Source: a virus. From it: 49,554 bases of DNA. Positions 2,575 to 45,435 of the stretch are shown here, piece by piece (positions within the stretch are counted from its first letter, which is position 1; every line of letters begins with the position of its first letter). Below the pieces are notes generated by a model. The model was not told the origin of the DNA. It searched no databases and saw only the letters and a program-made list of their open reading frames with translations. Location: positions 1 through 49,554 of the IMG/VR virus record IMGVR_UViG_2643221500_000001. The stretch is one strand, 5' to 3'. A program made the translations under genes and the position numbers.

Positions 2575-2959
2575 GGGCCGCCTCCTTTGCGCGCAAGAGG
2601 GCGATGCAGAGGGCGATGGCTCCAGCCGAAGGGTGATCCGCCGAGTGGCCTACAATTTCGCCATCTATCGCGGTCGATATGGTGGCGTGCCAGTAGCGAT
2701 GATGCACATTTTGCCCAACGCTTGGCACCCACCCCGGCAACACCCTCTCAGCCAGCGCTATAGCGGCGTCTACAGATGACGTCACATACAAGGCTGATGA
2801 AACATCACCATTCGGGAAATTATACATCCAGCACCCTTGACCGAGAGGAGCATCGGCCAGTTGCGAGAAAAACTTTCCATCGCAGAGCAGATCGTGGATT
2901 TCTTCATCCCCTTCCCTGTCAGGCGCGTCTAGCTTGGAGAGGCGGTCAACAAGAGCCAT
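2567..2959 (-). CDS. hypothetical protein
   Basis: ATG at 2959 (MALVDRLSKLD..) has GGAGG 7 nt upstream. Alternative in-frame starts at 3016 and 3076 lack a good SD. Confidence 0.55.
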   Translation of the reverse strand: MALVDRLSKLDAPDREGDEEIHDLLCDGKFFSQLADAPLGQGCWMYNFPNGDVSSALYVTSSVDAAIALAERVLPGWVPSVGQNVHHRYWHATISTAIDGEIVGHSADHPSAGAIALCIALLRAKEAARG

Positions 2960-3103
2960 CGCAGGGCCTCCATCCGCAATTTCCGCATTGTTTTGGCGAG
3001 TAGCTGCACTGTTCATATGCGTCACCGTCCACTGTTGGTTCGTCGCAATCCGGGCACTTGCCGTTGATCTCTTCACATCGGTATTCGGTTGAAGCGCAGC
3101 ACA

Positions 3104-3832
3104 TCATGACGGCTTCCCTCCCAGCGCTGCGCGGGCTGTTGCGCCACCATCAGCATCAAGAGACGCACGAAACTTATCGCCGTCAGCCCCTATCTTCCGA
3201 CAACCAGAAACCTGCTTGGCGTAGAACTCCAGCGCCTTTTCAGCCGCCGCGAGCTTGGCTTCGAGTTCCTTGTTTCGTTGCTGATGATCTTCGCGTAGTT
3301 CCGTCTCTGTCTTAACCCGCGCAGTCAGCGCCGCGTTGTCGGCTTTTATTGTTTCTATATGTTCTTCGTAAGCCTTTTGTACGTTGCCGAATTTTCGCAA
3401 CGTTTCGTCCTTCGCCGCGTTGTCGGCTTCGAGCTTGCTTACTCGCTCAGCTTCAATAGCGGCCTTCTCCATCCATATGCGTTTATCCGCCCGTTCCGCC
3501 GCCAATAGCTCCACAGCCTGCGAGCGGGTGACGACAGCAACAGCTCCAGAAGCGCAAGATTTCGGGTAAAGACGACTAATCCCCAGTTGTTGGTAGTCCA
3601 AACCCATGTCGTATTCGGATGGCGCGTAGCCCACCGTCACCAACTCCTCGCACTTGCCGGTAGCATCCGGCGATACGGGAGCAACGGGGGTGGCCCAAGC
3701 TGCAATCGCCTTGTCAAAGCAATCGCTCACGTTCTGCTCTATTTCGTTCGACATGCCGTGTGCCCAATGAACACCTTCGGGCGTGTCAAACCATGCTCGC
3801 AGGAAGGCTTCTTTGCGTTCTTCACTTGCCAT
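3104..3832 (-). CDS. hypothetical coiled-coil protein
   Basis: ATG at 3832 (MASEERKEAF..) is preceded by AGGAGG. The C-terminal half is a long heptad-like E/K/A-rich region. Confidence 0.65.
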   Translation of the reverse strand: MASEERKEAFLRAWFDTPEGVHWAHGMSNEIEQNVSDCFDKAIAAWATPVAPVSPDATGKCEELVTVGYAPSEYDMGLDYQQLGISRLYPKSCASGAVAVVTRSQAVELLAAERADKRIWMEKAAIEAERVSKLEADNAAKDETLRKFGNVQKAYEEHIETIKADNAALTARVKTETELREDHQQRNKELEAKLAAAEKALEFYAKQVSGCRKIGADGDKFRASLDADGGATARAALGGKPS

Positions 3833-5802: not shown

Positions 5803-6227
5803 GCTGCTTGCTCCTGTAGGAAGCCTTGGCGGCGTGTGTCGTAAAGGGTGATCCCGTGATCCGCACACCAAGCGAGCGCGTATTCGATCAGCGACGATGC
5901 GCGGGCGACCGACATGCGGGCAGTGCTTTCACGGATATTGATGAATTCGCCTTCGAGGCCGGGAACAATCTCGACCTTCTGATTGGTGGCGACGGCATGC
6001 CCAGATACCAGAAGGACTTTCCATTCTTCCGGCTTGCGAGCTTTGCCAGCCCACTCGAAACCAGACTTGGCAATGTCTGTGCAGATCGCATGAAACATCG
6101 CATTCTGGTCAACGCTACGCGTAGGCGGCGCAAACGTGGCCGTGAAGCCGTCAGGTGTGGCGAAGAGAGCCTGAACCGCATTCTGTCGTATGCGTGGGTT
6201 GACGAGTATGAAGCACTGCTTTTCCAT
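5799..6227 (-). CDS. ninB: NinB/Orf-family recombination mediator
   Basis: RSVDQNAMFHAICTDIA and STARMSVARASSLIEYALAWC line up with lambda NinB RSLDQNRKLWACLGDVS and STSRMRVGEFAELLELIQAFG. Size is ~142 aa. It lies next to ssb. Confidence 0.8.
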   Translation of the reverse strand: MEKQCFILVNPRIRQNAVQALFATPDGFTATFAPPTRSVDQNAMFHAICTDIAKSGFEWAGKARKPEEWKVLLVSGHAVATNQKVEIVPGLEGEFINIRESTARMSVARASSLIEYALAWCADHGITLYDTRRQGFLQEQAA

Positions 6228-13793: not shown

Positions 13794-14146
13794 TGAGACG
13801 AGCCGCTAAGCGAGATATAGCAGAGCCAGCAATTGTTGACGCCCTTAAGCGCGTCGGCTTCAGCGTTTTGCGCATGGATCAGCCAGTGGACCTGCTGACA
13901 GGATACCGCGGCGTGACATACCTCGTTGAGGTAAAAAGCGGTTCCAAGGGCTATGCGAAGGCCCTGAACGAAAACCAGAAGACTTTTGCTGACCAGTGGA
14001 ACGGCTCGCCAGTCTTCATTCTCCGTAGTGCAGATGACGCTATCGCATGGGCGCAGTCCGTTGCAGCCAATGACGATCTGGGCGACTGGCAGCATGTCGG
14101 AGACGTAACGCAAGGCATTATCGAACGGTTGAGGGCAAAGTTATGA
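13793..14146 (+). CDS. VRR-NUC / PD-(D/E)XK nuclease
   Basis: EPAIVDALKRVGF..PVDLL..YLVEVKSG..L..NQ..F matches the VRR-NUC D...ExK core. Confidence 0.8.
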   Translation: MRRAAKRDIAEPAIVDALKRVGFSVLRMDQPVDLLTGYRGVTYLVEVKSGSKGYAKALNENQKTFADQWNGSPVFILRSADDAIAWAQSVAANDDLGDWQHVGDVTQGIIERLRAKL

Positions 14147-15576
14147 ACGCCACTCCCGACAAGAATTCATTCGTGATTGAGATTGAGCAGGAAGTGCTTG
14201 GAACCCTTCTTATGGGAACCGACTTCCGCCGCGTTTCCACAATCCTTGAGCCTTTCCATTTCCTTGAGCCAGTGCATGCAGAGATATTCACGGCCATCAG
14301 CACAGCCCATGAGCGCATGAACTCAACCAAGCCAGCGGTAGTGATCAAGCTGATCCCGCAGGCAATTCAAGATCAGTACCAAGCCGCTGTCGGAGAAAAC
14401 CTTATCACCTATTTGGCGCGTCTTGCCGTCAGTGCTGTGCTTGGTGGTGCAGCATTTGAGAACACAGCAAAGCGCGTCGTAGACCAGTGGGCCAAGGCAC
14501 AGATTGCCAAGGAAGCCGCCATGTTGGCAGAAGCCGCAGGCGATCCGGCTTCCAGCCCTGTCGAACTGATCAAAACGTTTGGCATGGTTTCGGATGATAT
14601 TCTCGCCCATGTTCGTCGTGGTCCGCGCCGCAAGTCCCAGCTCTCCCTCAAGGACGCAGCGGACAATGCGTTTGCCGCAGCCAAGGAAGCACAGGAGCGA
14701 GGCAGTGGCCTTACTGGCCTGACATGGGGCCTTCGTGACGTAAACAGCAAGACGGGAGGCATCCACAAGCGTGATCTGACGCTTATCGGCGGTCGCCCTT
14801 CAATGGGCAAGACAACGGTAGGCCTGTCAACTTGCCTTAAGGTTGCCAGCGCTGGCCATGGCGTCGGGTTTATCTCTCTTGAAATGGATGCAGACAAGCT
14901 CGCAGCTCGTGCTGTGACAGATATCGCGTTCAACTGGAATATCCGCGTTCCCTATCAGAACGTCATCACCGGGCGCGCCACGATGGAAGAACTTGAACAG
15001 CTTCAGGCCGCTTCCAAGCGCTTCGAGGATTTGCCGCTTCTCATTGAGGAACAGTCAGGCCTCTCCATCACAGACATTCGCATCAAGCTTGAAACTATGA
15101 TGCAGAAGATGGAGCAGGTGGGCAATCCGCTCGAAATGCTCATGATCGACCATCTGGGCCTTATTCGTGCATCAAATCGCTATTCCGGCAACCGCACGAA
15201 TGAAATTGCTGAAATGACTTCGGCTCTGAAGTCGATGGCTCGTGAATACGGGATTGCAGTTGTTCTCCTGTCACAGCTCAACCGTGGGCTGGAAACGCAG
15301 GCAGACAAGCGCCCGCAGCTTTCCTCATTGCGAGACAGTGGCGCTATCGAGCAGGACGCGGACACGATCATCTTCCTATACCGTGAGGCTTATTATCTCC
15401 TCCGCGAAAAGTCAGACGATCCAAGCAAGCAGGCAGAAATCGCCGCCAAGCTGATCGACTGCGAAAACGTCCTGGAATTTGCCATCGCCAAGCAACGTAA
15501 CGGCCCGGTCACCTCGATTGACCTGTTTGTGGATGTTGCTTCGTCAGCGGTGCGCGATTTGGAAAGGCTTCATTGA
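14143..15576 (+). CDS. dnaB: replicative DNA helicase (DnaB family)
   Basis: 477 aa. Walker A GGRPSMGKTT, Walker B LMIDHLGL, and QLNRGLE..RP..SDLRDSGAIEQDAD, typical of DnaB. Confidence 0.95.
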   Translation: MNATPDKNSFVIEIEQEVLGTLLMGTDFRRVSTILEPFHFLEPVHAEIFTAISTAHERMNSTKPAVVIKLIPQAIQDQYQAAVGENLITYLARLAVSAVLGGAAFENTAKRVVDQWAKAQIAKEAAMLAEAAGDPASSPVELIKTFGMVSDDILAHVRRGPRRKSQLSLKDAADNAFAAAKEAQERGSGLTGLTWGLRDVNSKTGGIHKRDLTLIGGRPSMGKTTVGLSTCLKVASAGHGVGFISLEMDADKLAARAVTDIAFNWNIRVPYQNVITGRATMEELEQLQAASKRFEDLPLLIEEQSGLSITDIRIKLETMMQKMEQVGNPLEMLMIDHLGLIRASNRYSGNRTNEIAEMTSALKSMAREYGIAVVLLSQLNRGLETQADKRPQLSSLRDSGAIEQDADTIIFLYREAYYLLREKSDDPSKQAEIAAKLIDCENVLEFAIAKQRNGPVTSIDLFVDVASSAVRDLERLH

Positions 15577-16505
15577 TGAGCGTTCAAGCTATTTCATGGG
15601 CTGTGACATTTGACGCGGAAAATGCCACGGAAAAGGCTGTTCTGCTGATACTCGCCAACTATGCGGATGGAAACGGCGTTTGTTTCCCCGGTCAGCAAAG
15701 CATTGCCAAGCAATCGGCATGTTCTGATCGCTCTGTTCGCAGGGTTCTTGATAGCCTTGAGGAACGCGGGATCATCCGCCGCATTATGCGCCGCAGAGGT
15801 GATGGAACTCGTACCAGTGACCGCATTATTCTCGTAGCTTTTCAACAAGTGGCCAATTTGGCCGCTTGCGAAGAGCAAGAGGACAATCTGTCAACATCAA
15901 CCGGACATCCTGTCAAAACCAACCGGACATCCTGTCCTAATCAACCGGACACTGTGTCCAGGCTCACTACGTTTGAACCGTCAGGGAACCATCAGCAGCA
16001 GCGCGCGGACGCAGGCAAGCCAGCCGATGACCTTTCTATTCTCCAAAGCAAACTGACCGCATCAGCCGGAGACAAGATACAGCCTCATGGCGTGTTTGAT
16101 CTCAGCGCAATCATTGGCCTGATCTCAGCTGGCGTGGATGTGGAGACCGATATCCTGCCAACCATCAGGGCCAGAGCCGCAACGATGCAGCGCCCCGCCA
16201 AGGGATGGAACTATTTCACCGACGCCATCAAGGACGCTCATAACCGCCGCATCAAGGCAGGCGAGGGCCTTGCCAAACCGGCGCGCATCATAACCCCAGA
16301 CACTGAGTTGGCTCCAGAAACTCTCGAAGCCGAATGGGAAAAGCGTCTCAGGTACGCCCGCAGAAATTCAAACTGGATTTCAGCGGTATGGGGTCCAATG
16401 CCAGGAGATGATGGGTGCCGTGTTCCAAGCAATCTACTTCAACCAACCGACGGAAAAGACCGCTACGGCGTCCGTTGGGATGACCAGTCAAAGAGGGCCG
16501 CGTAA
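15576..16505 (+). CDS. replication initiator-like protein (N-terminal winged-HTH)
   Basis: N-terminus AISWAV...EKAVLLILANYADGNGVCFPGQQSIAKQSACSDRSVRRVLDSLEERGII is typical of phage replication-initiator HTH domains. It contains an iteron array and lies downstream of dnaB (TGATG overlap). Confidence 0.8.
   Translation: MSVQAISWAVTFDAENATEKAVLLILANYADGNGVCFPGQQSIAKQSACSDRSVRRVLDSLEERGIIRRIMRRRGDGTRTSDRIILVAFQQVANLAACEEQEDNLSTSTGHPVKTNRTSCPNQPDTVSRLTTFEPSGNHQQQRADAGKPADDLSILQSKLTASAGDKIQPHGVFDLSAIIGLISAGVDVETDILPTIRARAATMQRPAKGWNYFTDAIKDAHNRRIKAGEGLAKPARIITPDTELAPETLEAEWEKRLRYARRNSNWISAVWGPMPGDDGCRVPSNLLQPTDGKDRYGVRWDDQSKRAA
15876..15958. repeat. four 17-nt iterons phased every 22 bp (putative ori) inside the initiator gene
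   Basis: CAAGAGGACAATCTGTC (15876), CAACCGGACATCCTGTC (15898), CAACCGGACATCCTGTC (15920), CAACCGGACACTGTGTC (15942). Confidence 0.7.
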
Positions 16506-17017
16506 TGGATCATTCAAATCTTGGACATGAGTTTGAACACCCGCTCGGCGTGTTCCGTGGAATGAACCCAGCATTCGTTCATAAGGTCTGGGCCAAGCGT
16601 CGTGCTGAAGAGAAACGCAAGCGTGAGCAGGAAGAACGCGCTCAACTCAAGGAAAAACGCAAGCAGGAAGCCCGCGAACGCGCCGAACGTGCTGCGCGGA
16701 TGCTTGAAGCCGCACGAAAGAAAGAGCTGGAAAAGGTCAGATCAGCAAATCGTCCTTTGGTTGCGGATATCATCGCGGCAGTTGCCAGCGATTTCGGCGT
16801 ATCGGCCAAGGACGTAATGAGCAGGGACCGCCGTTACACCGTGGTCAAGGCCCGACATGCGGCAATGGCGGAAGTGGCAAAGCTCCGGCTCGATCTGTCG
16901 ACAGTGAAAATTGGCGAACTGTTCGGTGGTCGTGACCATTCCACCGTTGTCCATGCCATTCAGAAATTCGGGATCAACCGTGAAGCGCTCAAGAGCGCTC
17001 ACAAACAAGCGGCATAG
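16505..17017 (+). CDS. DnaA domain IV-like (Bac_DnaA_C) HTH protein with Lys/Glu-rich N-terminus
   Basis: C-terminal IIAAVASDFGVSAKDVMSRDRRYTVVKARHAAMAEVAKLRLDLSTVKIGELFGGRDHSTVVHAI resembles the DnaA C-terminal DNA-binding domain. Confidence 0.75.
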   Translation: MDHSNLGHEFEHPLGVFRGMNPAFVHKVWAKRRAEEKRKREQEERAQLKEKRKQEARERAERAARMLEAARKKELEKVRSANRPLVADIIAAVASDFGVSAKDVMSRDRRYTVVKARHAAMAEVAKLRLDLSTVKIGELFGGRDHSTVVHAIQKFGINREALKSAHKQAA

Positions 17018-17028
17018 GAGAGGGCGAT

Positions 17029-17344: not shown

Positions 17345-17929
17345 ATGGCGAGGACGAAGGCGGCGAAACTTCAAGCCAAGCGATCAAGAGGAAGGCCAAA
17401 GAAGGATGTTTCCCTCCGTGAACCCAATGGCAGGGCATCAAGAATGAAAGAAGACCCGGCCAAAGTGGCGATGGAGGCAAGGATGAGACATTACGGCGTA
17501 CCAGCAGACATGGCCCGCGATCCGCGCACAGGCTCATACCTTGGCCGTCTGGCAATGGCTGGTCGAGGCGAGGGCATCAGTCAGGACCAGTATGAGGCAG
17601 CAACCCGCTACATCGATCTGTATAACTCGTATCAGAAGGCAATCGGATCACCTGGGGCGTATTACGAACAGATTGGGGGCGTCAATGCTTCTGATCCTGA
17701 TGCCTATGCCGATTGGTGTATTCGAGTAAAGCAGGCGTATAAATCAGCACACGACGCCATCCATGAAGCGCAGGCAGAGGAACGATCAGAGAACCTCTGG
17801 GCGGGCCTTCAATACGTGGTAATCCAGGACCAAGAGTTTCCGCACCTGCTTTCTTCCACAAGACTTGTGTGTAACGCCCTGCATAGGCACTTCATTCTTG
17901 ACAAAAAAAGCAAATCACTGAATAAATGA
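17345..17929 (+). CDS. hypothetical protein, last gene before the ORF-free segment (function unknown)
   Basis: ATG 17345 (MARTKAAKLQ..) with a GAGGA SD. Basic N-terminus. No family recognised. Confidence 0.65.
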   Translation: MARTKAAKLQAKRSRGRPKKDVSLREPNGRASRMKEDPAKVAMEARMRHYGVPADMARDPRTGSYLGRLAMAGRGEGISQDQYEAATRYIDLYNSYQKAIGSPGAYYEQIGGVNASDPDAYADWCIRVKQAYKSAHDAIHEAQAEERSENLWAGLQYVVIQDQEFPHLLSSTRLVCNALHRHFILDKKSKSLNK

Positions 17930-17969
17930 CATCAGATTTTAGGGTGCCGAGTTGCATCCAAAGAGATAC

Positions 17970-17991
17970 AGCGGCTTTCGGGCCGCTTTTT
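17970..17991 (+). terminator. intrinsic terminator
   Basis: AGCGGC tttcg GCCGCT followed by TTTTT, 40 nt after the stop at 17929. Confidence 0.6.
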
Positions 17992-17994
17992 GAT

Positions 17995-18505
17995 TCTGAG
18001 GCAATGCCTCAACGGAATGTGCGAGACGCGGTGAATGCCAGGGCCGTCCTCCCCACAAGGGTGTAGAGTTACCGAGAGATTTGGCGCTCGGCGCACACCA
18101 AATGCGATCTAGGTGCTATGGGTTGGCGGGTGTCTCACCGAAACCAACGTGTTAAATGCCCGTCCTTCTGAGGGTGAGACTACCATTAGGGGATCGCAGC
18201 CTATACCGCACATGGTGATCGGCGCTGTTCCGGGATAGCAGCAGGCCGTCCGAACCGATCACAGACAAGTGGCCCGGCTATGTGCGGGAACTAATCAGAA
18301 CGGCGGCGCTGAAAGCAGAAGCGCTCTTCGCGGCAGTTTGCACGATAGCCAGACCGGTTAGGCCGCTGGATAGCCGGGGTAGCGTCCGGCCCGTTCTGAT
18401 CTAATTCGGTGCCAGTCACATCGTCACCTGATGACATAGGGCAGGATGGTTAAATGCGGGGCATGCGCCAAGCCGAAAGAGTTTGTCCGTAGGCCACCGA
18501 GTATC
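17995..18505 (+). ncRNA. candidate structured RNA / cis-regulatory leader (family unknown)
   Basis: No ORF of 60 aa or more in any frame. Perfect helices: 18080-84/18098-102, 18132-39/18173-80, 18206-13/18280-87, 18215-22/18255-62, 18294-303/18391-400. Strand is assumed from the flanking plus-strand genes and terminators. Confidence 0.3.
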
Positions 18506-18518
18506 AGAGGTCGCCCAG

Positions 18519-18722
18519 ATGAAACGATGTATTCACTTCGTCGGGTTCTGTGGTGAGGAATACTGGACAGCGGTAAAAGCCTTCGGGCCACCACACTTCA
18601 TTCATCGCGGATGGGACTTGAGGGCGCGCCGAGAAATAGCTGATGGTGATCTGGTTGTCTTCGCAAGAGGCCCGCACGATCAAGCGCCGCGTACCAAGTC
18701 ATTTGATGATATTCGCGAGTAA
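18519..18722 (+). CDS. hypothetical protein
   Basis: ATG 18519 (MKRCIHFVGF..) has AGAGG 8 nt upstream. 67 aa. Confidence 0.6.
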   Translation: MKRCIHFVGFCGEEYWTAVKAFGPPHFIHRGWDLRARREIADGDLVVFARGPHDQAPRTKSFDDIRE

Positions 18723-18726
18723 TTCA

Positions 18727-18753
18727 GCCGTCGCCTTCGGGTGGCGGCTTTTT
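18727..18753 (+). terminator. intrinsic terminator
   Basis: GCCGTCGCC ttcg GGTGGCGGC (9 bp, two G-U pairs) followed by TTTTT. Confidence 0.75.
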
Positions 18754-18815
18754 CAATTCCGCATCGTGCGGATAGGCGGCTGAGGTCGTCGCTTCACAAA
18801 CGAAAGGAAATGACC

Positions 18816-19043
18816 ATGAGCGATCTTACCAAGATCGAATACCGAGTTGTGCCTGTCACCCGCTATATCGTGACGCGTTATCATGAGGAAGGGCGAGGCG
18901 CAGGGTGCGAACATCGTGGAGAGTTCGATAACCAGCAAACCGCTTACGATGTTGGCTATGCGCTTGCCAAGGCGGAACATGATCAACTTGGCTGGCCTGT
19001 CGGTGACGAGCGGATCACCTATCCAGAGTTTCAGCCCGCTTAA
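18816..19043 (+). CDS. hypothetical protein
   Basis: ATG 18816 (MSDLTKIEYR..) has AAGGA 7 nt upstream. 75 aa. Confidence 0.6.
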   Translation: MSDLTKIEYRVVPVTRYIVTRYHEEGRGAGCEHRGEFDNQQTAYDVGYALAKAEHDQLGWPVGDERITYPEFQPA

Positions 19044-19056
19044 TCGCGGGCTTTTT
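19033..19056 (+). terminator. intrinsic terminator (stop codon lies in the loop)
   Basis: AGCCCGC ttaatc GCGGGCT followed by TTTT. Confidence 0.75.
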
Positions 19057-20773: not shown

Positions 20774-21307
20774 ATGAGTGAGCGCGATCCCGGCACAGGT
20801 CGTTTCCTTCCGGGTAACAGATTGTGGGAAGCGCGTTCTTCACATGGTCGCAATCCCAAGTTCAGTAATCCTGACGATCTATGGGATGCATGCTGCCAGT
20901 ATTTCGAATGGGTGGATAGCAACCCGCTATTCGAAGACAAGATAACATCGTTTCAAGGCATCAATAAGCATGAGCCGGTTGCAAAACTCCGTGCAATGAC
21001 CTTGCAAGGGCTTTGCCTGTTTATTGATGTAACGATGAAGCAATGGATCGAATGGCGTAAAGACCGCGCCGATTTAAGTGATGTCATCACGCGAGCCGAA
21101 GCAGTCATCTACCAGCAGAAGTTTTCCGGTGCCGCTGCTGATCTTCTCAATGCCAATATCATTGCTCGCGATCTCGGCCTTGCTGACAAGAGTGAGCTGA
21201 CCGGCAAGGATGGCGGGCCAATCGAAACGAAGGACGCAGACGGATACGATCTTGCCCGGCGCATCGCATTCGCACTGAGCGGAAAGAATGACAAATCTGC
21301 TGGATGA
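20774..21307 (+). CDS. terS: terminase small subunit
   Basis: 177 aa. Pattern [29 protein letters not shown]...[18 protein letters not shown] is typical of phage small terminases. It overlaps terL. Confidence 0.8.
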
Positions 21308-44760: not shown

Positions 44761-45131
44761 GATGCAGTCCTCATCTCCTTGACTTTCTCTCTTACTGATG
44801 CGCGCCAATCGTCAGCTACGCTAGAGAGTATCTTCTTTAATTCTGCCTTCTCTGCGGCGGACAGATTTATTTTTTCGCCTTTAGAATACACGTCCATTAT
44901 AAACACGGGGACGTCATCGGCTGCATAATAGGTGATTACTCTATAACCGCCGCTTTTCCCTTTCCCGGGTTTCGCGAAGCGCAATTTTCGCGCGCCTCCT
45001 GTTCCTTGGATCAAATCGCCAGCCGTTGGGTTTTCTGAAAGCAAATTGTTCAGCCGAAGTCTTTCGTCTTCGGTCATCCCCGCTTCATCAGCGGCCCTAC
45101 GGTAAGAGTGCGTTTCGATCACTGTGTGCAT
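44757..45131 (-). CDS. RelE/HigB-family type II toxin
   Basis: GGARKLRFAKPGKGKSGGYRVITYY..DVPVFIMDVYSKGEKINL is the pattern of the RelE-like (COG4737-type) toxins. The toxin-first order is as in higBA. Confidence 0.8.
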   Translation of the reverse strand: MHTVIETHSYRRAADEAGMTEDERLRLNNLLSENPTAGDLIQGTGGARKLRFAKPGKGKSGGYRVITYYAADDVPVFIMDVYSKGEKINLSAAEKAELKKILSSVADDWRASVREKVKEMRTAS

Positions 45132-45213
45132 GACTAACGACTACGGGATATACGTAGTTCCGTCAACAAACATTTAATTCACTCAGAATTTTTTTCAACC
45201 TGGGATCAATCTC

Positions 45214-45435
45214 ATGAAACTCGTTTCCGACTGGAAGCGGGTGCTCGCGCGCGCGTGGAGCATCCGTTTGCTTTTGCTCGCCGGTATTCTTTCCGGCGTT
45301 GAAGTGGCGCTCCCTTATATCGGTGACGCCTATCTCATCCCAACCGGTGTATTCGCAGCGCTATCCGTTCTTGTGACGATGGCGGCATTTGCCATGCGCC
45401 TAATCTCCCAGAAGGAATTTCGCGATGGCGAGTAG
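45214..45435 (+). CDS. holin (two TM segments)
   Basis: 73 aa with TM segments IRLLLLAGILSGVEVALPYI and GVFAALSVLVTMAAFAMRLI and a charged C-terminus. It overlaps the endolysin start. Confidence 0.65.
   Translation: MKLVSDWKRVLARAWSIRLLLLAGILSGVEVALPYIGDAYLIPTGVFAALSVLVTMAAFAMRLISQKEFRDGE

What the first reader, a model, noticed from the sequence alone, without database searches (positions are those of the whole stretch)
17930..18518. 0.55-kb ORF-free, helix-dense segment at the early/late junction: candidate large structured RNA of unknown family
The six-frame track lists no ORF of 60 aa or more between 17929 and 18483. Almost every other part of this window carries several overlapping spurious ORFs.

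The segment holds many perfect, mutually compatible helices:
- TTTGG/CCAAA (18080-84 / 18098-102) with an inner CGC/GCG.
- GTCTCACC/GGTGAGAC (18132-39 / 18173-80).
- CCGCACAT/ATGTGCGG (18206-13 / 18280-87), which directly encloses GTGATCGG/CCGATCAC (18215-22 / 18255-62).
- ATCAGAACGG/CCGTTCTGAT (18294-303 / 18391-400), enclosing GCGCT/AGCGC (18306-10 / 18320-24).

Other features:
- GTTGG (18122-26) can pair with CCAAC (18144-48) inside the first loop, in pseudoknot geometry.
- The 9-mer GTTAAATGC recurs at 18151 and 18449.
- ATGCCC (18156-61) is complementary to GGGCAT (18459-64).

The segment starts right after an intrinsic terminator and ends at the SD of the 18519 gene. By eye I could not match it to RNase P, tmRNA, hammerhead or common riboswitch cores. 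Dense phage genomes rarely keep 0.5 kb of non-coding GC-rich sequence without a function.
Basis: seen in the sequence. Interest (0 to 1): 0.75.

Follow-up and report, generated by a model that had tools for sequence, protein, structure and literature searches.

The report
Modular structured-RNA array in Brucella phages
The gene-free 0.55 kb is one copy of an undescribed string of small, independently folding RNA modules that phages of Brucella/Ochrobactrum carry beside or in place of their tRNA genes, so it is probably a new phage non-coding RNA family whose function is unknown.

Summary
Positions 17930-18482 are the longest ORF-free stretch of the window, and every listed helix is at its stated coordinates. 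Long perfect local helices are enriched (5 against 0.8 in shuffles, P about 0.001), although the overall folding energy is no better than chance.

This is structured RNA absent from Rfam 15, but it is not one large RNA. It is a string of stem-closed modules on the + strand: terminator T1, start hairpin H0, Mod1, Mod2, Mod3, terminal module M2, a tail, then the leader of a 67-aa gene and terminator T2.

About 70 distinct arrays were recovered from Brucella/Ochrobactrum/Falsochrobactrum prophages and metagenomes. The array also sits, unannotated, in isolated phages POI1126 and BiPBO1 and in the lytic Tb-group brucellaphages. Modules are shuffled between arrays in a roughly fixed order. tRNA genes lie inside or directly against 11 of 72 arrays, always on the same strand. 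In POI1126 the array fills the gap between tRNA-Met and tRNA-Gln.

Compensatory changes support Mod3, including a pseudoknot, and the M2 hairpins.

The closest analogues are GOLLD and ROOL RNAs, but their models do not match. Function is unknown and expression is untested.

The parts
17898..17926 (+). Promoter-like box at the 3' end of gene pA: TTGACA at 17898-17903, a 17-nt spacer, AATAAA at 17921-17926.
   Evidence: Inferred. 30 of 33 distinct sequence contexts have TTGAC or TTGCC 55-85 nt upstream of T1 and none closer. The strict sigma-70 scan finds no site here.
17942..17959 (+). Small leader hairpin GGGTGC/GCATCC between the promoter-like box and T1.
   Evidence: Predicted by folding 17934-17998 (z = -2.0). 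Relatives have different but still complementary arms at the same place (by eye). No formal test was run.
17970..17997 (+). Intrinsic terminator T1 (AGCGGCTTTCGGGCCGCT followed by TTTTT).
   Evidence: Terminator scan. Identical or nearly identical in more than 30 loci with unrelated upstream sequence.
17998..18010 (+). Array start hairpin H0 (GAGGC-AAT-GCCTC), followed by the linker AACGGAAT at 18011-18018.
   Evidence: z = -3.6. Present at the 5' end of about 38 true arrays with a variable loop and G.U variants. It begins 5 nt after the 3' end of a tRNA in 5 arrays. L009 has GCCC-AACA-GGGC in its place.
18018..18097 (+). Module Mod1, closed by TGTGCG/CGCACA.
   Evidence: 93-99% identical over about 80 nt in 11 other loci that have different neighbours. 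It is nearly invariant, so there is no covariation evidence for or against its inner fold. MFE z = -0.4.
18103..18198 (+). Module Mod2, closed by (T)GCGATC/GATCGC(A). GTCTCACC/GGTGAGAC and GTTGG/CCAAC lie in pseudoknot geometry. Carries the first GTTAAATGC.
   Evidence: Homologues in L041, L039 and L061 (87-96% identical). The closing stem differs from the family's usual GCGAG/CTCGC on both strands. L041 keeps GTTGG/CCAGC through a G.U pair. The inner helices are otherwise invariant.
18206..18287 (+). Module Mod3. P1 is CCGCACAT/ATGTGCGG, P2 is GTGATCGG/CCGATCAC, P3 is GCTG/CAGC. A pseudoknot joins loop CCGGG (18230-34) with CCCGG (18273-77).
   Evidence: Formal count on 5 sequences: 99.2% of cells paired, 7 pairs changed on both sides, 0 of 500 shuffles reach this, and slid controls give 29-39% paired. 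All the double changes come from one diverged relative (L009).
18294..18400 (+). Terminal module M2, type A. The closing stem is ATCAGAACGG/CCGTTCTGAT. Hairpin 1 is GCGCT-GAAAGCAGA-AGCGC. A variable centre follows. Hairpin 3 is GCCGG-GGTAGCGT-CCGGC.
   Evidence: The closing stem and both hairpins recur in more than 40 arrays whose centres range from 43 to 104 nt. Count on 9 variants: 100% paired, 5 pairs changed on both sides, 0 of 500 shuffles. 95.7% identical to L005/L006 although the flanks differ.
18403..18476 (+). Tail module carrying the second GTTAAATGC. In L039 and L089 it is followed by a second, type-B M2 module.
   Evidence: 90-96% identical in L039, L089, L112 and L146; L151 carries a shortened, diverged copy with a 19-nt internal deletion. 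There is no stable predicted fold (z = +0.9). Its structure is unresolved.
18489..18518 (+). 5' leader of the small gene pB.
   Evidence: Travels with pB rather than with the array: 97% identical in L007, L017, L028, L030 and L089.
18519..18722 (+). pB, a 67-aa protein of unknown function. It is an optional cassette between the array and T2.
   Evidence: ORF list. No Pfam or PHROG family. Homologues in 17 viral contigs. Absent from most arrays.
18726..18755 (+). Intrinsic terminator T2 (AGCCGTCGCCTTCGGGTGGCGGCT followed by TTTTT), the usual 3' boundary of the array.
   Evidence: Terminator scan. 100% identical in many loci directly after M2 or the tail.

Best explanation
The segment is one instance of a modular array of structured non-coding RNA that phages of the Brucella/Ochrobactrum group carry on the same strand as their genes, in the slot where their tRNA genes sit.

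Shown:
- The array has a fixed start: hairpin H0 plus the linker AACRGAAU.
- It has a fixed end: module M2, closed by AUCAGAACGG/CCGUUCUGAU, usually followed by terminator T2.
- Between these lie zero to about six stem-closed modules, several of them pseudoknotted.
- The modules fold on their own and are exchanged between phages.

Inferred:
- In this prophage the array is transcribed rightwards from a promoter-like box inside the end of gene pA. Transcription must read through terminator T1, so the array would be made with the late genes.
- The closing stems, the flanking tRNAs (where present) and the terminator hairpins set the processing boundaries. Compact modules, or the whole array, are then released as stable RNAs.
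- In POI1926-type arrangements no inference is needed beyond standard processing: in phage POI1126, ordinary tRNA 5' and 3' processing alone would free an RNA of about 325 nt that is exactly the array.

Speculative:
- The released RNA acts in trans on a host factor specific to this bacterial family, for example by binding or sequestering a protein that handles tRNA or other RNA.
- The biochemical target is unknown.
For: Recurrence and modularity:
- The two anchor motifs co-occur in the same order at 122-566 nt spacing.
- About 70 distinct arrays were collected. They show combinatorial module content in a roughly conserved order: H0, then A, 1, J or G, then B, C, F, D, then M2, tail and T2.
- BLAST hit boundaries coincide with module boundaries.

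Structure under selection:
- Mod3: 99.2% paired, 7 double changes, 0 of 500 shuffles, including a pseudoknot.
- M2 hairpins: 100% paired, 5 double-changed pairs, 0 of 500 shuffles.
- Type-B M2 shows perfect compensation in a 9-bp helix and a 6-bp pseudoknot across three lineages.
- Hand-curated tally over 12 helices: 35 double-compensated changes, 13 single changes that keep pairing, 12 that break it.
- GNRA hairpins co-vary: GGCTC-GAAA-GAGC against GGCCC-GAAA-GGGC.

RNA on the + strand:
- tRNA genes lie in or against 11 of 72 arrays, all on the array strand. In 5 arrays the tRNA ends exactly 5 nt before H0.
- In POI1126 the array (2709-3029) lies between tRNA-Met (2629-2703) and tRNA-Gln (3032-3105).
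- The flanking terminators point the same way.
- The curated helices hold 13 G.U pairs against 6 A.C pairs.

Selection for retention:
- The array occurs in three unrelated phage types: lambdoid-like prophages and BiPBO1, POI1126, and 43 records of the 38-41 kb lytic Tb-group phages. No annotated feature lies under the match in any listed record.
- It is single-copy per phage and restricted to Brucellaceae.

Not coding: there is no ORF of 60 aa or more, and the modules separate from one another in relatives, so no reading frame is conserved across them.
Against: - There are no expression data of any kind. Transcription, processing and stability are all inferred.
- Thermodynamic stability is not above shuffles for the whole segment or for most modules.
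- The family is confined to phages of one bacterial family. The double changes come from few independent lineages (L009, POI1126, L002/L127, L007, L039), so the shuffle statistics overstate independence.
- Mod1 and the inner helices of Mod2 are invariant and therefore untested.
- The tail has no convincing fold.
- The most common module (ModD) and H0 show several uncompensated changes: 7 of 9 changes in the ModD stem break a pair.
- The G.U over A.C excess is modest.
- The strict promoter scan finds nothing in the window.
- The upstream protein pA has no fold or family match to any antiterminator.
- Orphan T-arm hairpins in some arrays (Tb, L069, L106) could mean that part of the material is decayed tRNA.
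Confidence: 0.6

Rival explanations
1. It is a cis-acting leader of the late operon. On this view the array is not a free RNA but the structured 5' part of the late transcript. It would sit behind a promoter-plus-terminator unit and serve antitermination, pausing, processing, or protection of the downstream mRNA from RNases.
For: - In the window and in about 30 related contexts the array directly follows a TTGAC box, a leader of about 40 nt, and T1.
- It lies between replication genes and TerS/TerL/portal, on the same strand.
- Further terminators (T2 and 19033-19052) interrupt the same transcription direction. From general knowledge, this is typical of operons read by terminator-resistant polymerase.
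Against: - The same modules occur with no T1 unit in POI1126, between two tRNAs. They also occur in lytic Tb phages, between small ORFs and the portal gene.
- Module content varies freely between otherwise similar phages. That is hard to reconcile with a fixed cis mechanism.
- pA shows no similarity to Q or other antiterminators.
Confidence: 0.17
2. It is a single large RNA with one global architecture. The helices listed would then be domains of one fold.
For: - The start (H0) and the end (M2 plus T2) are conserved, and module order is roughly conserved.
- In POI1126 the whole array would be released as one piece of about 325 nt.
- GOLLD likewise has a conserved 3' part and a variable 5' part (PMC12286853).
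Against: - Modules are present or absent independently, and their boundaries are the closing stems.
- The proposed long-range pairs are not conserved or not required.
- No inter-module covariation was seen.
- The global MFE z-score is about 0.
Confidence: 0.1
3. It is a recombination scrapyard. On this view the slot collects decayed tRNA genes and fragments that are shuffled by recombination at short shared sequences, and it has no function of its own. It looks conserved only because the phages are closely related.
For: - Some arrays hold orphan T-arm hairpins and tRNAs with abnormal anticodon loops.
- Direct repeats of linker sequences flank modules, and deletions between short repeats are visible.
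- Many module copies are 93-99% identical, so they give no test of selection.
- Small protein genes (pB and the 51-aa cassette E) are mixed in.
Against: - Where copies have diverged, changes in the helices are overwhelmingly compensatory, pseudoknot pairs included.
- Loop sequences such as GGUAGCGU and GAAAGCAGA stay fixed while their stems change.
- Compact lytic phages of 38-41 kb keep about 400 nt of it.
Confidence: 0.08
4. It is a DNA-level element, such as an origin, a packaging site, or a single-strand initiation or recombination site that works through hairpins in DNA.
For: - It lies next to the replication module in the window.
- It is dense in inverted repeats.
Against: - Its position relative to replication and packaging genes differs in POI1126 and Tb.
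- It always has the polarity of the tRNAs and terminators.
- G.U-type variants, GNRA loops and pseudoknots are RNA hallmarks.
- There are no iterons: neither the self-comparison of the segment with the window nor my reading of the sequence shows direct repeats.
Confidence: 0.03
5. It is a decayed protein-coding gene.
For: The position between genes, and short ORFs of 40-56 aa on both strands.
Against: - No relative carries a longer ORF over the window's modules. The only coding cassettes in arrays are separate units (E and pB).
- Module boundaries and indels ignore any reading frame.
Confidence: 0.02

Closest known systems
GOLLD RNA (Rfam RF01998) and ROOL RNA (RF03087): large ornate RNAs of phages and prophages
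   Same: - Both are encoded in phages and prophages, often near tRNA islands.
- tRNAs are sometimes found inside the GOLLD linker region.
- One GOLLD lies just downstream of a Met-tRNA.
[quoted passage not shown]
- Both are rich in pseudoknots, and their function is unknown (all from PMC12286853).

Here: tRNA-Met lies directly 5' of the array in 3 arrays (L046, L138, POI1126) and heads the tRNA pair 5' of it in 2 more (L075, L107). tRNAs are embedded in others. The 3' module M2 is conserved and the 5' part is variable. Pseudoknots are present.
   Different: - There is no match to either covariance model, even at E up to 1-10.
- This array is shorter (about 200-600 nt) and built from interchangeable modules rather than one fixed architecture.
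- Its host range is limited to Brucellaceae.
- Whether it multimerises is unknown.
Phage tRNA islands and tRNA-punctuated RNA processing
   Same: - It occupies the same genomic slot and strand as the phage's tRNA genes.
- The junction is fixed: tRNA 3' end, then GUUUC, then H0.
- In POI1126 tRNAs bound the array on both sides. By general knowledge, RNase P and 3' end processing would then release it.
   Different: - The window has no tRNA at all.
- The modules are not tRNAs by ARAGORN or by the Rfam tRNA model.
- 61 of 72 arrays have no tRNA nearby.
Lambdoid late-gene leader (Q gene, pR' promoter, short terminated transcript at tR', accessory genes and tRNAs downstream, as in Stx phage 933W; from general knowledge)
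   Same: A promoter-like box, a short leader and a strong terminator lie directly after the last early gene. Then come tRNAs or accessory elements, then the packaging genes, all on one strand.
   Different: - The upstream protein pA (PHROG 15385) has no Pfam match and no fold match to any Q protein.
- The promoter is not detected by the strict scan.
- The array also occurs outside this setting.
Bacterial Y RNAs (YrlA): modular RNAs with a closing stem plus a tRNA-like domain
   Same: A long closing stem formed by the 5' and 3' ends encloses a variable body. In some M2 variants that body contains a T-arm-like hairpin (L069, L106). The abstract of PMC4201824 states only that bacterial Y RNAs are widespread and mimic tRNAs; the stem-plus-tRNA-like-domain architecture is from general knowledge.
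   Different: - No Rfam Y RNA model matches.
- No Ro60/Rsr gene was seen among the proteins I annotated.
- The window's M2 has no T-arm.

Membership tests
GOLLD RNA (RF01998) | Match to the family covariance model (conserved 3' domain). | tested here: not met
   cmscan of the window at gathering score gave 0 hits. Positions 17800-18800 at E up to 10 gave only 3 unrelated weak hits. 17 related loci at gathering score gave tRNA only. 11 loci at E up to 1 gave no GOLLD hit.
GOLLD RNA (RF01998) | Phage or prophage location next to, or containing, tRNA genes. | tested here: met
   tRNAs lie in or against 11 of 72 arrays on the same strand. In POI1126 the array lies between two tRNAs. This shows a resemblance in context, not homology.
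GOLLD RNA (RF01998) | Length commonly above 800 nt and assembly into a homo-oligomeric cage. | not testable with these tools
   The arrays are about 200-600 nt. Assembly needs biochemistry or cryo-EM.
ROOL RNA (RF03087) | Match to the family covariance model. | tested here: not met
   The same searches gave no hit.
tRNA / tRNA-like (RF00005, ARAGORN) | Cloverleaf recognised by ARAGORN or by the Rfam tRNA model. | tested here: not met
   The window has 0 tRNA or tmRNA genes and no RF00005 hit. True tRNAs are found only as separate units in some related arrays.
Small self-cleaving ribozymes (hammerhead, twister, twister-sister, pistol, hatchet, HDV-like) | Match to the Rfam models of the catalytic cores. 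| tested here: not met
   No hit at E up to 10 in 17800-18800, although CTGATGA is present at 18427-33.
Riboswitch or cis-regulatory leader families in Rfam | Match to an aptamer model, and a constant downstream gene. | tested here: not met
   No Rfam hit. The downstream gene varies between arrays: pB, none, tRNA-Gln, or portal.
Dispersed repeats (REP, BIME, MITE, Bru-RS type) | Many copies scattered through a genome. | tested here: not met
   There is no second copy in the 49.5-kb window. The start motif was found 16 times across the one-genome-per-species bacterial and archaeal collection, and 15 of those hits are in Brucellaceae or Rhizobiales records. I did not verify that each of these loci is a prophage.
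Lambdoid Q-dependent late leader | A Q-family antiterminator gene directly upstream. | tested here: not met
   pA has no Pfam family. A PDB profile search gave only weak RecA and fusolin hits. The AlphaFold model (pLDDT 81) has no Foldseek match with E below 0.8.
Lambdoid Q-dependent late leader | A promoter followed within about 50-200 nt by an intrinsic terminator, ahead of the late genes. | tested here: inconclusive
   T1 is clear. A TTGAC or TTGCC box lies 55-85 nt upstream in 30 of 33 contexts. The strict sigma-70 scan finds no promoter in the window, and there are no transcript data.
CRISPR array / integron cassette array | A constant repeat at regular spacing, with cas or intI genes nearby. 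| tested here: not met
   The linker AAYRGAATGCGAG recurs at irregular spacing of 50-190 nt, and its halves pair across the modules. No cas or integrase family appeared among the flanking proteins I annotated.

The most novel reading that the evidence does not exclude
The array is a combinatorial cassette system of small pseudoknotted RNA decoys. Each module would bind and neutralise a different host protein, for example nucleases or sensors that act on tRNA or other RNA in Brucella/Ochrobactrum. Phages would swap modules by recombination at the shared closing stems and linkers, as an arms-race locus made of RNA rather than protein genes. tRNA processing enzymes would release the decoys.
Probability: 0.15. 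Interest if true: 0.85.

Novelty: new variant of a known kind. Interest (0 to 1): 0.62.

Why it matters
- If real, this adds a third family to the small set of phage-borne structured RNAs linked to tRNA islands (GOLLD and ROOL), whose function is still unknown.
- This family has an unusual feature: interchangeable, independently folding, often pseudoknotted modules between a fixed start and a fixed end.
- It is carried, unannotated, by isolated phages: the lytic Tb-group brucellaphages, BiPBO1 and POI1126. The question can therefore be tested directly by Northern or RNA-seq analysis, by deletion, and by pull-down.
- The modules are small (50-110 nt), which suits structure determination.
- In practical terms it explains a recurrent gap of 0.3-0.7 kb in the annotation of Brucella and Ochrobactrum phage genomes.

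Tried and rejected
- **Rfam.** I searched the window and 28 related loci at gathering and E-value thresholds. Only tRNAs were found, and only in some relatives.
- **Folding energy.** Single-sequence folding of the whole segment and of each module is no more stable than shuffles, except for H0. Thermodynamics alone would have dismissed the finding.
- **First BLAST searches.** BLAST of the segment against phages and plasmids gave only 31-38 nt hits. This looked like a dead end until motif searches showed that the modules are shuffled.
- **Is pA a Q-like antiterminator?** It has no Pfam family and belongs to PHROG 15385 of unknown function. A PDB profile search gave nothing. The AlphaFold2 model (pLDDT 81, all helical) has no Foldseek match. 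Rejected as a tested claim. What remains is the positional argument, together with my unquantified reading that pA divergence tracks the promoter-leader sequence group.
- **Local hairpin alternative.** The conserved unit could have been the local hairpin CTCGCA-CAGAA-TGCGAG (a tRNA acceptor-like minihelix), with the modules as spacers. Rejected, because closing-stem variants change on both sides of a module and not across a linker. Examples are GCGATC/GATCGC in Mod2 and GCGAT/ATCGT in L055.
- **Other readings rejected.** Dispersed repeat or MITE; decayed gene.
- **MAFFT misalignment.** MAFFT alignments of type-B M2 and of one M2A variant (L035) put the 3' strands out of register. I dropped L035 from the formal count and tallied type B by hand.
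- **My own script errors.** My terminator regular expression failed to mark array ends. About 20 of 58 hits of the short start motif were chance matches in coding DNA. About 10 of 46 hits of the short M2 motif appeared, on reading, to be chance matches as well.
- **Literature.** The BiPBO1 paper (PMC4729917) has none of the words non-coding, noncoding or intergenic, and the Ochrobactrum phage paper (PMC5492332) has none of noncoding, non-coding or intergenic; neither describes the array. A catalogue of about 10,000 candidate viral structured RNAs (PMC10690425) could contain some modules, but I could not check its motif list.
Full report
**1. The observation**

The window is a prophage of the Brucella (formerly Ochrobactrum) intermedia type. 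The nearest relative of the upstream protein is a B. intermedia hypothetical protein at 95% identity.

Gene order around the finding is as follows:
- DnaB helicase, 14143-15576
- O-like initiator, 15573-16505
- DnaA-like HTH protein, 16505-17017
- pA, 17345-17929 (PHROG 15385, unknown function)
- the finding
- pB, 18519-18722 (67 aa, no family)
- small genes
- TerS at 20774, then TerL and portal

Positions 17930-18482 carry no ORF of 60 aa or more. This is the longest such run in the window; the next internal one is 82 nt.

Two tests of "more than chance" disagree.
- The minimum free energy of the segment equals that of dinucleotide shuffles: z = -0.03 on the + strand and -1.13 on the - strand.
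- Perfect inverted repeats of at least 8 nt and at most 130 nt span number 5, against 0.79 +/- 0.90 in 1000 shuffles.

Overall stability is ordinary for DNA of this G+C content.

**2. What the relatives show**

Rfam 15 finds nothing. BLAST of the whole segment gives only scraps.

Loci fetched through the flanking proteins showed a mosaic. For example, 18290-18404 is 95.7% identical to L005/L006, whose flanks and pA gene (27% identity) are otherwise unrelated.

Two short motifs taken from an alignment were then searched in IMG/VR. They co-occur in the same order and orientation at 122-566 nt spacing.

Reading these stretches gives a grammar:
- The array opens with a terminator T1 or a tRNA.
- Next comes hairpin H0 (GAGGC-NNN-GCCTC) and the linker AACRGAAT.
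- A variable number of modules follow, each closed by its own stem. The stem is often GCGAG/CTCGC, and the linker CAGAAT is repeated between modules.
- The last module, M2, is closed by ATCAGAACGG/CCGTTCTGAT.
- A short tail and terminator T2 end the array.

In the window the parts are:

| Part | Coordinates |
|---|---|
| T1 | 17970-17997 |
| H0 | 17998-18010 |
| Mod1 | 18018-18097 |
| Mod2 | 18103-18198 |
| Mod3 | 18206-18287 |
| M2 | 18294-18400 |
| tail | 18403-18476 |
| pB leader | 18489-18518 |
| pB | 18519-18722 |
| T2 | 18726-18755 |

BLAST hit boundaries against about 160 loci fall at these module boundaries.

About 70 distinct arrays were collected. Their module content is combinatorial, but the order is roughly kept. 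A 51-aa basic ORF (cassette E) and pB are optional protein-coding inserts.

**3. Distribution**

A scan of one genome per bacterial species found the start motif in Brucella (formerly Ochrobactrum) species, Falsochrobactrum and unnamed Rhizobiales isolates. Each genome had one locus, except B. pseudintermedia with two. One further hit lay in a Prevotellaceae metagenome-assembled genome and is probably chance.

In related viral loci where flanking genes could be identified, the array lies between replication genes or pA and the packaging genes, on their strand.

It is also present in isolated phages of three unrelated types:
- **POI1126** (Namazuvirus). The array (locus L162 2709-3029) fills the space between tRNA-Met (2629-2703) and tRNA-Gln (3032-3105).
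- **BiPBO1**, a temperate siphovirus, at 44981-45323.
- **43 Brucella phage records, those listed being lytic Tb-group phages.** In Tb it lies at 5931-6216, between ORF11 and terminator_1/portal.

No feature is annotated over it in any of the listed records. The two genome papers I could search do not describe it.

**4. Is it structure, and on which strand?**

*Mod3.* Five sequences include one at about 75% identity (L009). Of 125 cells, 99.2% form standard pairs, and 7 pairs are changed on both sides. None of 500 column shuffles reaches these values, and slid controls give 29-39% pairing. The pseudoknot between loop CCGGG and downstream CCCGG changes to CTGGG/CCCAG.

*M2 hairpins.* In nine variants 100% of cells are paired and 5 pairs are changed on both sides, with 0 of 500 shuffles reaching this.
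- Hairpin 3 has stems GCCGG/CCGGC, GTCTG/CAGAC and GCCAC/GTGGC around the constant loop GGUAGCGY.
- Hairpin 1 is GCGCT/AGCGC, but GCGTG/CACGC in POI1126.

*Type-B M2 interiors.* In L001, L039 and L007 a 9-bp helix and a 6-bp pseudoknot helix are fully re-coded in three lineages.

*Hand tally.* Over 12 helices I counted 35 double-compensated changes, 13 single changes that keep pairing and 12 that break it. Most of the breaks are in ModD and H0.

*Strand.* All tRNAs in or next to arrays are on the array strand (11 of 72 arrays). Five tRNAs end exactly 5 nt before H0. T1 and T2 point the same way. The curated helices hold 13 G.U pairs against 6 A.C pairs.

*Limits.*
- The double changes come from few lineages.
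- Mod1 and the interior of Mod2 are invariant.
- The tail has no convincing fold.

**5. Setting in this prophage**

Upstream of T1, 30 of 33 distinct sequence contexts have a TTGAC or TTGCC box 55-85 nt before the terminator stem, and none closer. These contexts fall into seven or eight unrelated sequence groups.

In the window this box is TTGACA at 17898-17903, inside the end of pA. A small hairpin (17942-17959) follows, then T1.

This looks like a promoter that makes a short terminated leader, with the array and late genes reached only by read-through. From general knowledge, this is the layout of lambdoid pR'-tR'.

It remains an inference for three reasons:
- The strict promoter scan finds no site.
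- pA has no family or fold match to any antiterminator.
- POI1126 and Tb carry the array without this unit.

**6. How it most likely works**

Shown: a recurrent, strand-specific, non-coding array of independently folding modules, with selection on base pairing in at least Mod3 and M2, tied to phage tRNA genes and spread across unrelated phages of one host family.

Inferred: it is transcribed with the late genes. The closing stems, the neighbouring tRNAs and the terminator hairpins set processing points. In POI1126, ordinary tRNA maturation alone would free the array as one RNA of about 325 nt.

Speculative: the released RNA acts in trans on a host-specific factor. The points that suggest this are:
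- retention in compact lytic genomes;
- host restriction;
- module turnover;
- constant loops on changing stems;
- T-arm-like hairpins in some members.

I put 0.6 on the core statement and about 0.3 on the trans-acting reading within it. The rivals are a cis-acting late leader, one large RNA, a tRNA scrapyard, a DNA-level site and a decayed gene. They are weighed in their own section.

**7. Comparison with what is known**

The closest analogues are GOLLD and ROOL. Both are phage-borne, lie near tRNA islands, sometimes have tRNAs inside, have a conserved 3' part with a variable 5' part, are rich in pseudoknots, and have unknown function (PMC12286853).

Membership fails on the one testable defining feature, the covariance model. 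The array therefore resembles them in context but is not a member.

It is also not any of the following:
- a tRNA;
- a known ribozyme or riboswitch;
- a dispersed repeat;
- a CRISPR-like or integron-like array.

**8. Verdict**

I rate it a new variant of a known kind, namely phage structured RNA associated with tRNA islands.

- What raises interest: the modular build, the pseudoknotted modules, and the presence in isolated, culturable brucellaphages.
- What lowers it: the narrow host range, the lack of any expression evidence, and the unknown function.

Noticed in passing
L062 1785-1859 (-); also L127 and L128 (tRNA-like units 114-202 nt downstream of H0): tRNA-like genes embedded in three arrays are called by ARAGORN with abnormal anticodon loops (anticodons given as 'tc', 'cc', 'gccc'). 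L081 carries the normal tRNA-Arg(tcg) version of the same gene. These could be decaying tRNAs or unusual decoders.
   Followed up: no
L001 4972-5127 (also L035, L042, L070, L075, L144): A 51-aa Lys/Arg-rich ORF (MKGPRELKRYVAKNRKLLKSRCWDDLVIFKLERCKKWRKAHRRPRDGYLAQ) with a GGAG Shine-Dalgarno sequence sits as a cassette between RNA modules D and M2 in many arrays.
   Followed up: partly
window 17345-17929 (pA): The protein upstream of the array (PHROG 15385) is all-helical. The AlphaFold model has mean pLDDT 81, yet there is no PDB fold match and no Pfam family. By my reading, its divergence tracks the sequence group of the promoter-leader region downstream. This hints that it acts on that region.
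   Followed up: partly
window 17898-17997 and about 30 related loci: The unit of TTGAC box, leader of about 40 nt with a small hairpin, and strong terminator is conserved in layout across seven or eight unrelated sequence groups. It would make a short terminated RNA of roughly 60 nt.
   Followed up: partly
L062, L128, L131, L142 and others, directly after T1: Another conserved non-coding element ('ModX', ATGCGGGTGCAAGTAGCAGGCGACCGAATGTCC...) follows T1 in 33 loci instead of, or ahead of, H0. L069 has a T-arm-like hairpin there. It is not in Rfam and is not called as a tRNA.
   Followed up: no
L163 2670-2730 (Brucella phage Tb, record 6100-6160): The Tb array contains an orphan, perfect T-arm (GCGGG-TTCAAAT-CCCGC) outside any called tRNA. 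Similar orphan T-arms lie inside the M2 modules of L069 and L106.
   Followed up: no
window 18151-18159 and 18449-18457: GTTAAATGC is kept in all homologues of Mod2, and GGTTAAATG in all homologues of the tail. Its recurrence in one sequence is about what chance gives. It may be a shared loop motif.
   Followed up: partly
window 18519-18722 (pB): The 67-aa gene has homologues in 17 viral contigs at 46-97% identity, with no Pfam or PHROG family. It is an optional insert between the array and T2.
   Followed up: no
L007, L040, L045, L071 (after the 5' half of M2): In several arrays the 5' strand of the M2 closing stem (AATCA[G/A]AACGG) is joined directly to a gene on the opposite strand that normally lies beyond T2. 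This looks like deletion between short similar sequences.
   Followed up: no
plasmids NZ_CP137607.1 (35219-35653) and NZ_CP061090.1 (25613-25650): Two Brucella plasmids carry pieces of the array. One of them is 59 kb, about the size of POI1126, so they are probably phage-plasmids.
   Followed up: no
window 17002-17028: A 27-nt junction sequence between the DnaA-like gene and the next ORF is 96-100% identical in loci whose flanking genes have diverged. It is one of several short conserved boundary sequences in this phage group.
   Followed up: no
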